A DNA stretch of 64,000 bases, from assembly GCA_951406725.2 (NCBI GenBank), contig OX597818.1, forward strand, positions 40,734,001 to 40,798,000. The letters are read 5' to 3'. The notes under the pieces are model-generated. The model searched no databases and was not told the origin of the DNA. It saw only the letters and a program-made list of their open reading frames with translations. The stretch comes from Octopus vulgaris (taxonomy: Eukaryota). Below are positions 7,843 through 61,262 of this stretch, in pieces (the stretch's first letter is position 1; every line of letters starts with the position of its first letter). The position numbers and the translations under genes are program-made.

Positions 7843-8140
7843 GCAAAAATGGTATTTCTAAAATCTCTCTAAGAGATCAACGCAGTAGTCGTACTGACAA
7901 GTAATATTCATAACCGCTTTGAAATGGCTGTCCGTTCGAGCGGACCCTACTGCGGTTTTGTAATCCCAAGAGGACATCTCCTCTAGCTGGTTAACGATGC
8001 ACAGCATCATCCGATTAAATTGCGAGCAGGGGGGGGGGCAAACACTTACAATCTCCTAGCGACGGGACCAGTAGAATATTACATGTCAGTACAGCTACTG
8101 CGTAGATCTCTTAGAGAGATTTCAGAACTATCATTTTTGC
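7843..8140. mobile_element. MITE-like element with ~67-bp terminal inverted repeats
   Basis: 7843-7909 (GCAAAAATGGTATTTCTAAAATCTCTCTAAGAGATC...) is the near reverse complement of 8074-8140; no clear TSD. Confidence 0.75.
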
Positions 8141-8288
8141 GTGTTGCAAAATCAGCGACTGCATGTTCGCTTGAAATATACAAAATATATATATATATAT
8201 ATATATAACAAAGTTGAGTTGTGGGGTATCGCACGAGTGGAATTATATACGAAAGAAGGTTTGAAAATGCTATTTAAAAGATGTTTAT

Positions 8289-8333
8289 TTACTTAACCGG
8301 TTTCACTCTTTGGAAAAAGATTGTCAAAAGTAA
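8289..8333 (-). ncRNA. Minimal hammerhead-ribozyme-like motif (U3:A8 variant), left-arm copy
   Basis: Reverse complement of 8722-8766. Confidence 0.5.
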
Positions 8334-8721
8334 CATAGAATATTATAAATTCAAAAAAGTTTTTTACATAATTGCCACATTGAATATTATGAATTCAAAA
8401 AAGTTTTTTTTACATAATTGCCACATTACATGTCCTTTTTACCAAAGACTGTATATATATACATGTAATGTGACAATTTGCAACAACCAATAATTAACGC
8501 AACCAAATTTCCAATAATATATTTGTTTTATTCTTTTCTGCCCATTTTTCCAAATATTCTCATCACACTGTTGAACTTCTTTATGCCCTTAACATATCCC
8601 TGTTACCAAAGACTATATTTATACATGTAATGTGGCAATTATGTAAAAAAACTTTTTTGAATTCATAATATTCAATGTGGCAATTATGTAAAAAACTTTT
8701 TTGAATTCATAATATTCTATG

Positions 8722-8766
8722 TTACTTTTGACAATCTTTTTCCAAAGAGTGAAACCGGTTAAGTAA
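8722..8766 (+). ncRNA. Minimal hammerhead-ribozyme-like motif (U3:A8 variant)
   Basis: TTACTT-TTGACAA-TCTTT.TTCC.AAAGA-GT-GAAA-CCG-GTT-AAGTAA: 6-bp stem I, stem II hairpin, palindromic AACCGGTT stem III. Confidence 0.5.
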
Positions 8767-8804
8767 ATAAACATCTTTTAAATTGCATTTTCAAACCTTC
8801 TTTC

Positions 8805-8855
<51 letters not shown>

Positions 8856-8858
8856 TAT

Positions 8859-9332
8859 TGCGTGCAGAGGTGAGCTGCTATCATCTCTAGCAGACGAGGT
8901 GTCCAGTACTGAGGAGTGGCAGAAATAGCCCCCAATCCAGGACTAGTCTACCGGTCCCATCTCTAGGAGATAGTAGGAGTTCGCTCCCCTGCTCGCTGTT
9001 TTATAGGATGCTACTGTGAATTGTTAACCAGTTGGAGGAGTTGTCCTATTGGGGTTAAAAAATCGCAGTAGAGTCCGCTCGAACGAACAGCCGTGTTAAA
9101 GTGACTACGAATATGACTTATATATGTATACGATTATGAATTTGCGTTAAGCAAAGAAAGAATACAGACGAAGACGGAAAGTGTCGCCGAAGAGGTCACA
9201 GATGTGTGGCGAGAGATTTCCGGACAATGGACATGAGCTAGAATAAGAAGAATAATAGACGAGTGGAGAACGAATATATAGTGCGTGTGTTTATTGGGGA
9301 AATAACAAAAATGGCCACCCCGAAATACAACA
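8859..9332. mobile_element. Candidate solo LTR (TG...CA, 474 bp) inserted in (TA)n
   Basis: Starts TG at 8859, ends CA at 9332, ATAT on both sides; AATAAA and TATATA on the minus strand. No internal domain seen. Confidence 0.45.
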
Positions 9333-59550: not shown

Positions 59551-60819
59551 AATATTGCGAATAACTACTTTGTTGTTTAGCCCATCGTCAGGTTGATGGA
59601 ACAGATATATGGTGAACTGTGTTCAAAACTTAATCTGACCATCTCATTTGCTTAGGGTCTCGGGAACTTCATTGTCTTATAAATCCCCTTTATTTATTTA
59701 TTTATTCATTTATTTATTTATCTATATATTTAAGCCTATAGAGAATACGCTCGTCTGCATCATTTATTAGGATCAGGTACCTTCGTATTTTTTTCTGCTC
59801 ACTAGTCTCATGTTGATTGATACGAATTCGTATAAAAATACGCAACCTTGCAGCCCGATCATGTAAACTCAAGCGATAGTCACTGCATTCTGATTATCAG
59901 AGTGAACACTGGGGCGCATTTTGCAGTGCAAACAGAATCATCGGCTGATCGCCGACCAGTGTTATTACAGATCAATCCGTGATAAGCGCAACATAATTCA
60001 GAATTGGACGTGGATCTGTAATCCCAGTTCCACGATGAACAAATCAATGATAAATGAGGCTATATGTACAGCGTGTGCTCAGTTCACACATTACTACTTA
60101 TTGTGCATTAACTGTTCTAGTTAAAAATTGAAGAAGTGAAGTGAGATTACAGAACTTATTGTGTTGGTAACTATTATCTAATAGGCATTAAGCACGGAAA
60201 TGTTGATATAACAATATTATAGCCATGGAATTATGGTAATTTGCTAGTTAAATTATCTTAAATACTATTTGTTTATTGGTGGTTGATTCCTCTTGCAAGG
60301 AACAGGATCGATTTTCCAACAATCGATATTATTTTTTGTTTCATTCGCGAATCAAATTTTAGTTGGATAGCATGAAGTTTATCATATAATCTTCAAGCAT
60401 TTATTTGAATTCTACTTTCATTTAATTTTCGTTATAACAATCAAATCCTTAATATTCGTATATAACTTCCACTTCGATATGGTTGAATCACGTCAGTACC
60501 AAGTAACTAAGGGTTTATTTATTATTACAATATAATTTCACTACAGATAAAGTGAAAGGAGACTCATTTTAGCAGAGACTGGTCTCGAAAATATAAATAA
60601 ACTGGGACTTTATAATTCATTTATTTAAATTTTGTCACTAATTATGTAGAAAGGAGATGAGGGGAGGGGAGACAATGAAACTGAAGTACACGTTTGCGCA
60701 CAGACTGATAAATTGATCCAAATTATTTTCATATTCCTTGTAAAATAACCATCACAACTCCAGATGCAAATACAGCTGGATTTATTCCAGAGAGAGCTTT
60801 TTATATGGAGATTTTTACC

Positions 60820-61262
60820 TCTATCTAACACATCTCACACAAGCCCAAGTGCGCTCGACAACAATGCTGAAGCCGTCAATAAAAAAATATGGAAGACCTA
60901 ACTGTGGTATATGCGTCAACCTAATTGAGGGATCGGAGTTCTCTTTCAAACAGGGCCAACGTTTTACAGTGAAAAACAATTTCACATGTGCTTCGGAGAA
61001 ACTAATATATGTATTAACTTGCTCTGGGTGTCGAGAGCAATACATAGGCCAAACTAAAAACAGTCTGCCTCAAAGGATGGATCTACATCGATCCCAGATC
61101 AAAATTCGGGAATACAGAAAAATGGCATTCAACGAACACATCGACATTTGCACCAATAACAAATAACCAAGCTTCAGAATTTTTCCCCTTTATAAATTCA
61201 GGGACGATGCAACCTGTAGTCAGCGTATTAGCAAAGAGTCATATTTAATCACAAAATATAAA
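60820..61262 (+). pseudogene. Penelope-like element fragment: CxxC motif and GIY-YIG endonuclease
   Basis: RPNCGICVNL...FTCASEKLIYVLTCSGCREQYIGQTKNSLPQRMDLHRSQI...EHIDIC, a stop, then FRIFPLYK...QRISKESYLITKYK. Confidence 0.92.

What the first reader, a model, noticed from the sequence alone, without database searches (positions are those of the whole stretch)
8244..8811. Foldback element carrying mirror-image hammerhead-like ribozymes with a compensatory U3:A8 core
Seen: each 190-bp arm contains UUACUU-UUGACAA-[UCUUU UUCC AAAGA]-GU-GAAA-CCG-GUU-AAGUAA, with a perfect 6-bp stem I, a stem II hairpin, the palindrome AACCGGUU at stem III and AATAAA just downstream. Known: the hammerhead core CUGANGA has a C3:G8 tertiary pair, so UUGANAA is exactly the pair-preserving double change; minimal hammerheads with palindromic stem III occur in Penelope-like pLTRs and act as dimers. 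Inference: a variant ribozyme that CUGANGA-based searches would miss, arranged so a transcript from either strand carries one copy. Caveat: two extra bases (GU) separate stem II from GAAA.
Basis: partly seen in the sequence, partly recalled or inferred. Interest (0 to 1): 0.72.

Follow-up and report, generated by a model that had tools for sequence, protein, structure and literature searches.

The report
Penelope stub carrying U3:A8 hammerheads
This 600-base mirror-image stretch is a cut-short insertion of a Penelope-type jumping gene whose end carries a conserved hammerhead-shaped RNA with a published core variant; the RNA likely cuts itself only as a pair in full-length elements and is predicted to be trapped and idle in this copy.

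Summary
In detail: two 190-bp arms, 98.4% complementary, each with the motif. It is not a DNA foldback element. It is a 5'-truncated insertion of an endonuclease-positive Penelope-like retrotransposon (Neptune/Nematis type) into (TA)n: a direct pLTR end plus an inverted copy bearing the 37-nt tail. Full copies encode RT and a GIY-YIG-type nuclease. The hammerhead is real by comparison. PLE families 50-60% identical in protein keep the core at the same place, stem I covaries, and N7 and H17 vary. Stem II should be re-read as U10.1·U11.1 then C-G (97% paired, 2 double changes, versus 65%, 0), which removes the 'extra GU' caveat. U3:A8 is published for PLE hammerheads (PMC4209133), and U·U for natural ones (PMC3088659). 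Among CCGG-loop motifs here U3:A8 outnumbers C3:G8 by 11,451 to 399. The mirror layout is an insertion by-product: on either strand the motif is predicted to sit in a 190-bp duplex. Truncations do not pile up at the predicted cut (9 versus a control mean of 5.6). Cleavage is untested. The scan noted such stubs in other genomes before.

The parts
8428..8811 (+). Direct, 5'-truncated 3' end of the PLE (last 384 nt of the pLTR/3' UTR), ending in TATATA at the (TA)n target
   Evidence: 96% to both pLTRs of full-length copy L033; 95-99% to the best dispersed copies
8207..8433 (-). Inverted, more truncated copy of the same 3' end, including the tail
   Evidence: 95.8% to the upstream pLTR plus tail of L033
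8207..8243 (-). 37-nt PLE 'tail'; in full elements it lies between the upstream pLTR and the ORF1 start
   Evidence: present at one end only in 9 of 9 scorable units
8428..8433 (.). 6-bp palindrome ACATGT shared by the direct and inverted pieces (inversion joint)
8722..8766 (+). Type I minimal hammerhead: stem I 8722-8727/8761-8766; core U3..A9 8728-8734; U10.1 8735 opposite U11.1 8750; stem II 8736-8740/8745-8749; GAAA 8751-8754; 2-bp stem III with CG loop; predicted cut after GUU, between 8760 and 8761
   Evidence: cleavage not tested
8289..8333 (-). Identical hammerhead motif in the inverted arm
8766..8771 (+). AATAAA just 3' of stem I; kept in this lineage, not at this place in other U3:A8 families
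   Evidence: function not tested
8629..8722 (+). Two 44-nt tandem units of the pLTR, mirrored at 8333-8427
   Evidence: number and sequence differ between subfamilies
8185..8207 (.). Left (TA)n target run
8806..8858 (.). Right (TA)n target run; a target duplication cannot be told inside it

Best explanation
The stretch is a 5'-truncated, part-inverted insertion of an endonuclease-positive Penelope-like retrotransposon whose pLTR carries a conserved minimal hammerhead fold (U3:A8 core, U·U at the base of stem II) that likely cuts only as a dimer in full-length RNA and is predicted to be locked in a long hairpin in this copy. Shown: identity with both pLTRs of full elements that encode RT, a CX4CxxC linker and a GIY-YIG-type nuclease; (TA)n targets; tail at one end; covarying stems. 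Inferred: the nuclease nicks (TA)n. RT primes at one of two TA runs inside the element RNA (pLTR end or tail end), and both 3' ends of the copies map to these runs. The two partial copies join head to head, here at the palindrome ACATGT. In full elements two direct copies of the motif lie 5.5-5.8 kb apart and could pair through ACCGGU to build stem III and cut after GUU (my odds about 0.5 that this variant cuts measurably as a dimer in vitro). Cutting is probably slow or dispensable for insertion.
For: Parent elements with pLTR-ORF1-ORF2-long 3' UTR-pLTR: L033, L074, L077. RT Pfam RVT_1 E 2.2e-7; C646-x4-C-x2-C and LYVIRCEGCHEDYIG. 150 scored of 20,995 candidates in a protein search, many in 776-aa open frames. 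Copy ends: (TA)n or tail then (TA)n. Motif: other PLE families, 50-62% identical in RT/EN, carry UUGANAA...GAAACCGGUH downstream of their ORF with unrelated stems (L148, L153, L170, L185, L189, L200, L202, L203). In 29 of 30 loci (one duplicate site dropped; 4 families) the first 3 stem I pairs form in 92% of cells, versus 36% across families and 47% when slid by one. In 8 hand-picked sequences of this lineage, all 6 stem I pairs and 2 of 4 stem II pairs show double changes; 0/500 shuffles reach it, and slid controls give at most 55% paired versus 94%. N7 is C, A, G or U and position 17 is U, A or C among subfamilies. Core counts among CCGG-loop motifs: U3:A8 11,451; C3:G8 399; C3:A8 333; U3:G8 398. 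Hairpin: -291.5 and -311 kcal/mol for the two strands; stem pair probabilities 0.
Against: No cleavage data. The monomer fold is marginal (-1.9 kcal/mol), and a modelled dimer (-10.7) is less stable than an alternative dimer (-20.7). With U17 the palindrome can extend to 8 bp and pair A14 with U17. No excess of 5' ends at the predicted cut: 9 junctions versus a mean of 5.6 at six control positions, Poisson P 0.11; 1,258 of 1,274 arms keep U16.1. Several upstream pLTRs extend 5' of the cut site. Mismatched cores occur in amplified subfamilies: U3·G8 with the first stem I pair lost (about 56 of the first 100 rows by my count; long RT-EN match in L188), and C3·A8 in small families. The subfamily with most intact ORFs keeps only 4 contiguous stem I pairs. 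Pfam did not call GIY-YIG in this family's ORF2 at E 0.1, only in two relatives. Related sequences can beat column shuffles without structure, and the 8 rows were chosen by me.
Confidence: 0.85

Rival explanations
1. The fold is a catalytically dead or nearly dead hammerhead relic that is kept as an RNA structure (for example a protein-binding or 3'-end signal), not for cutting.
For: No pile-up of ends at the cut. A U3·G8 subfamily with a broken first stem I pair has still spread. In an anole Poseidon element, catalytic mutants did not change insertion in vitro and no RNA ends were found at the cut (PMC11167929, passages). Minimal PLE hammerheads cut poorly even as dimers (PMC4209133).
Against: G5, A6, A9, G12, A13, A14, A15.1, U16.1 and an NUH triplet are kept across families 50-60% identical in protein (they were partly fixed by my patterns, but reversed controls gave under 1%). 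Pair-preserving cores are 94% of the four counts (11,850 of 12,581). U3:A8 and U10.1·U11.1 are each reported as compatible with activity (PMC3088659).
Confidence: 0.35
2. The mirror arrangement is itself functional: a self-propagating palindromic mini-element that gives one active ribozyme to transcripts of either strand.
For: Both arms hold an intact, identical motif; inverted pairs are common in the family.
Against: No two scored units share length or joint (560-5,736 nt). The arms are simply young (98.4%). On both strands the complement is transcribed first and the stems have predicted probability 0. Inverted 5' copies are the known PLE insertion form (PMC8557442 section 6 passage; PMC3846280 passages).
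Confidence: 0.04
3. A non-autonomous DNA transposon (MITE/foldback) with 190-bp terminal inverted repeats and a TA target, the hammerhead likeness being chance.
For: Long near-perfect inverted arms with internal 44-nt repeats and TA flanks; poor predicted fold; no Rfam hit.
Against: All 40 scored relatives match as one 3' end with different 5' lengths, none as the whole 568-nt unit except this copy. The arm is the pLTR of an RT-EN element. Stems covary across families.
Confidence: 0.02

Closest known systems
Minimal type I hammerheads of metazoan PLE pLTRs, including the U3-A8 variant of S. mansoni (Cervera & de la Pena 2014, PMC4209133; read parts 1-2 of 4 and supplement passages)
   Same: Type I topology, in both pLTRs, palindromic 15.2-16.2/loop 3, dimer model, U3-A8 core, dual copies 100-700 bp apart on opposite strands, most copies solitary and truncated.
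   Different: No G10.1-C11.1 pair: U·U then C-G. Stem II is short and A/U-rich, stem III has 2 bp plus a CG loop. U3:A8 is the majority among CCGG-loop motifs in this genome (11,451 vs 399), whereas S. mansoni had about 1,300 vs about 2,000. No octopus entry in the supplement files searched (one file not searchable).
EN+ PLE insertion units of the Neptune/Nematis type (Craig et al. 2021, PMC8557442, section 3 and passages; Arkhipova et al. 2013, PMC3846280, passages)
   Same: C-terminal GIY-YIG-type nuclease behind RT, CX2-5CxxC linker, 5' truncation, inverted 5' copy, 30-40-bp tail at one end, palindrome at the inversion joint, (TA)n target, hammerhead near the 3' end.
   Different: 3' UTR of about 1.8 kb made largely of microsatellite-like sequence; ORF1 overlaps ORF2 in the -1 frame. 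Neptune versus Nematis was not decided.
Natural hammerhead core variants (Perreault et al. 2011, PMC3088659, section 8 read whole)
   Same: U3:A8 covariation and a U10.1-U11.1 start of stem II are each described in nature and called compatible with cleavage.
   Different: Here both occur together, with GUU and a minimal stem III, in a retrotransposon; I found no test of this combination.
Poseidon PAc of Anolis (PMC11167929, passages)
   Same: Two RT start sites that define the tail; hammerhead in the pLTR; no sign of ends at the cut.
   Different: PAc starts RT at sites not homologous to the cut DNA; here both 3' ends abut TA runs that match the (TA)n target. ORF1 starts about 120 nt 3' of the motif rather than inside it.

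Membership tests
EN+ Penelope-like element | RT with PLE motifs followed by a C-terminal GIY-YIG nuclease with CxxC inside | tested here: met
   RVT_1 hit; DKG, GTAMG, RYLDD, LYVIRCEGCHEDYIG. Pfam GIY-YIG hit only in two related families.
EN+ Penelope-like element | Direct pLTRs round the ORF, optional inverted 5' copy | tested here: met
   L033/L032, L074/L075, L077
EN+ Penelope-like element | 30-40-bp tail at one end of the unit | tested here: met
   37 nt; 9 of 9 scorable distinct units; L024 cut off by the locus edge and apparently tailed at both ends; L039 repeats L030
EN+ Penelope-like element | Target site duplication | tested here: inconclusive
   Both ends lie in (TA)n
Neptune/Nematis clades | CX2-5CxxC linker between RT and nuclease | tested here: met
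   C646-x4-C-x2-C; definition from PMC8557442
Neptune clade proper | Placement in an RT tree with reference PLEs | not tested
   No reference sequences were fetched
Hammerhead ribozyme (type I, minimal) | Core Y3 U4 G5 A6 N7 R8 A9, G12 A13 A14, A15.1-U16.1, H17 with a 3:8 pair | tested here: met
   U3:A8; N7 and H17 vary among subfamilies
Hammerhead ribozyme (type I, minimal) | Stems I and II supported by covariation | tested here: met
   8 hand-picked rows and 4 families
Hammerhead ribozyme (type I, minimal) | G10.1-C11.1 pair of the min-HHR consensus | tested here: not met
   U·U then C-G in all 8 rows. A tolerated natural exception per PMC3088659, so a preference rather than a strict rule.
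Hammerhead ribozyme (type I, minimal) | Match to an Rfam hammerhead model | tested here: not met
   No hit at E<=10; minimal variants lie outside those models (inference)
Hammerhead ribozyme (type I, minimal) | Site-specific self-cleavage | not testable with these tools
   Genomic proxy negative: 9 vs 5.6 junctions, P 0.11
Foldback/MITE DNA transposon | Copies share both ends and an internal length; transposase partner | tested here: not met
   Variable 5' truncation and joints; the partner is RT-EN
Non-LTR retrozyme | Head-to-tail tandem units each with a hammerhead, no ORF | tested here: not met
   Head-to-head pair from an ORF-bearing element; definition from 10.64898/2026.07.22.740005 part 1

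The most novel reading that the evidence does not exclude
A whole radiation of Neptune/Nematis-type elements in this genome runs on a U3:A8 hammerhead, and this lineage adds a U·U at the base of stem II and GUU. Together with sister subfamilies (U3·G8 with an unpaired U2.1, C3·A8, C3:G8; A-U, G-C or U·U at 10.1:11.1; H17 = U, A or C) it is a natural mutational series of over 11,000 copies. If some successful subfamilies cut and others do not, it would show directly whether PLE transposition needs ribozyme cleavage.
Probability: 0.35. Interest if true: 0.5.

Novelty: new member of a known kind. Interest (0 to 1): 0.3.

Why it matters
For this locus, little: it is one of more than a thousand stubs of a young retrotransposon family. 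The family matters modestly. Whether PLE hammerheads cut in vivo and are needed is open (PMC4209133; PMC8557442; PMC11167929). This genome offers recently amplified subfamilies with paired, wobble and mismatched 3:8 cores that can be assayed side by side. It also shows that CUGANGA-only surveys would miss about 97% of the CCGG-loop motifs here (399 of 12,581 pattern matches are canonical).

Tried and rejected
MITE/foldback reading: rejected. In-frame stop read-through between ORF1 and ORF2, suggested by copy L033: rejected, since most copies have ORF2 overlapping ORF1 in the -1 frame. Excess of truncation at the predicted cut: looked promising at 9 junction arms among 16 exceptions, but six same-design controls gave 4, 7, 3 (narrower pattern, scaled to 4.5), 6, 7 and 5, P 0.11. 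L235, a 3-nt deletion, was not counted as a junction; with it, 10 and P 0.06. Control denominators were not measured separately. C3:G8 to U3:A8 switching within the 359-bp tandem family (L119 vs L175, L176, L183): seen, but CpG decay could give the same letters, so not used as proof. (128 hits) holds duplicates from overlapping loci and was used only to list subfamilies. Rfam: no hammerhead hit. PDB sequence search with ORF2: 0 hits. Expression: no RNA holder listed; four guessed-RNA runs held as contigs were laid on a full element and cover 24-30 of 30 bins, but contigs cannot show ends or strand, so no conclusion. Host gene: none evident among 86 frames of 110 aa or more, judged by eye. Lunse et al. 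(PMC5785218) is not held; seen only as cited in PMC6765202 passages, and its variants may include this one. Literature searches: searches found no description of octopus PLE hammerheads. Supplements of PMC8557442 and PMC3088659 were not opened, nor file 1 of PMC4209133; they may bear on novelty.

Full report
Observation. The two arms are real: 8244-8433 and 8623-8811 pair at 98.4%, and each holds the same 45-nt motif. On its own the motif is weak evidence. It does not fold as a hammerhead at minimum energy, Rfam has no hammerhead hit at E up to 10, and my relaxed descriptor also gave chance-looking hits. The window is a microsatellite-rich repeat landscape in a 2.8-Gb genome. I take it for an octopus from recalled repeat content; earlier notes say the same.

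What the element is. A DNA search found 130 matches from 40 scored of 1,795 candidates. The best relatives match one 3' end at 95-99% and differ in how far they reach 5'. Longer copies lead through a 3' UTR of about 1.8 kb into a 755-776-aa frame with RT motifs, a CX4CxxC linker and a GIY-YIG-type nuclease. An ORF1 of about 445 aa lies in front. Full units have the repeat at both ends, with the motifs 5,459, 5,826 and 5,813 nt apart (L033, L074, L077). The protein search scored 150 of 20,995 candidates, many in intact frames, so the family is young. The window copy is the last 384 nt of the element (8428-8811) joined, at the palindrome ACATGT, to an inverted 227-nt copy that carries a 37-nt tail. 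Both ends sit in (TA)n. Nine of nine scorable inverted units have the tail at one end only and span 560-5,736 nt. This is the insertion form described for EN+ Penelope-like elements (PMC8557442; PMC3846280), not a DNA foldback transposon.

Is the hammerhead real? By comparison, yes. Within the lineage the core and GAAACCGGU stay while N7 (C, A, G, U), position 17 (U, A, C) and loop II change. The exact lineage pattern has 2,237 matches and its sister pattern 431, with 0 in reversed controls. Other PLE families, 50-62% identical in RT/EN, have the same core just downstream of their ORF with different stems. In 29 loci from four families the first three stem I pairs form in 92% of cells, against 36% across families. 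On 8 hand-picked sequences stem I shows double changes at all six pairs. Shifting it to U10.1·U11.1 followed by C-G gives 96.9% and two double changes (U-A to A-U to G-C). So there are no extra bases before GAAA.

The 3:8 pair. Among motifs with the CCGG loop the counts are U3:A8 11,451, C3:G8 399, C3:A8 333 and U3:G8 398, with reversed controls 94, 43, 60 and 50. These are copy counts, dominated by a few families, and motifs with other loops are not counted. The mixed classes are not only decayed copies: one U3·G8 subfamily that has also lost the first stem I pair has spread and keeps long RT-EN frames, and small C3·A8 families exist. Selection on the pair is thus strong but not absolute.

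How it most likely works. Shown: structure, target and tail. Inferred: the nuclease nicks (TA)n, RT starts at either of two TA runs in the element RNA, and two partial cDNAs are joined head to head. Two internal start sites that define the tail were shown in vitro for an anole element (PMC11167929). In full-length RNA the two direct motifs could pair through ACCGGU (-8.3 kcal/mol) and cut after GUU at 8760/8761, the dimer model of PMC4209133. I put the odds of measurable dimer cleavage near one half. In this copy the ribozyme is predicted to be idle: either strand makes the complement first, the hairpin is worth about -290 to -310 kcal/mol, and the stem pairs have probability 0, against 0.3-0.6 for stem I in the bare 60-nt motif. 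A genomic test for cleavage in vivo was negative: 9 junction arms start at the cut versus a mean of 5.6 at six control positions, P 0.11. Of 1,274 arms, 1,258 keep U16.1.

Comparison with the known. U3-A8 in minimal hammerheads was reported through a Schistosoma PLE, about 1,300 hits, as were opposite-strand pairs 100-700 bp apart (PMC4209133; a PLE-marked U3-A8 row in its supplement). U3:A8 and a U10.1-U11.1 start of stem II are each known natural variants (PMC3088659). I found no paper on octopus PLE hammerheads or on this combination, but Lunse et al. could not be read. Earlier notes of this scan describe the same kind of stub in other genomes; I had reached that reading before opening them.

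Verdict. Real feature, correctly spotted as a hammerhead variant of a Penelope-like pLTR, but an ordinary truncated insertion with a published core variant. New member of a known kind; interest 0.3. The residual value lies in the family-wide series of core and stem variants.

Noticed in passing
L074 (- strand, about 5913-5856), also L072, L075, L079, L084, L192: ORF1 and the RT-EN frame overlap in the -1 frame across a T TTT TTA heptamer, with an ATG overlapping the ORF1 stop 45 nt later: a possible programmed frameshift or re-initiation. The downstream fold is weak (-8.7 kcal/mol). PMC8557442 Fig. 1 legend mentions a frameshifted ORF1 in some PLE types.
   Followed up: partly
L186, L187, L188, L193: Recently spread PLE subfamily with U3·G8 and the base 3' of the cut lost, so U2.1 is unpaired; about 56 of the first 100 rows. 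A natural test of whether cleavage is needed.
   Followed up: partly
window 7843-8184 and 8859-9119: The finding is nested in an older repeat that is itself inverted (7899-8078 vs 8944-9119, 79%). It has a decayed CTGAGGA half-core at 8909 and is 69-74% like L115, which holds a whole C3:G8/CCGG hammerhead.
   Followed up: partly
window 13550, - strand: Textbook minimal hammerhead with canonical core, an unpaired A before a G-C-closed stem II and no stem III, in a common repeat.
   Followed up: no
window 12515 and 11955, - strand: Two identical canonical-core motifs with a CGTACG palindrome, 560 nt apart in a partial tandem with an inverted flank and (TA)n: another PLE-type insertion.
   Followed up: no
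L119-L125, L131, L132, L139-L141, L183: 359-360-bp tandem arrays with one hammerhead per unit, often head to head and ending in (TA)n: retrozyme-like. Some arrays have C3·A8 in every unit; related single copies have U3:A8. CpG decay at N7-G8 followed by C3U is a possible route to U3:A8 (inference).
   Followed up: partly
L230 and L231: Both arms of one inverted insertion start at the predicted cut behind the same foreign sequence, as if a cut RNA had been joined to another RNA before copying; a single case.
   Followed up: no
L033 1960-2010 and family ends: Both 3' ends of the copies (pLTR end and tail end) coincide with TA runs inside the element, which could pair with the (TA)n target during priming.
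   Followed up: partly
window 60744-61166, + strand: Fragment of another PLE nuclease frame with the CX4CxxC linker.
   Followed up: no
L200, L204, L212 and others: Sister PLE family whose stem II is a 4-bp helix capped by GUAA, a GNRA-type loop (label recalled), the cleanest member for an assay.
   Followed up: partly
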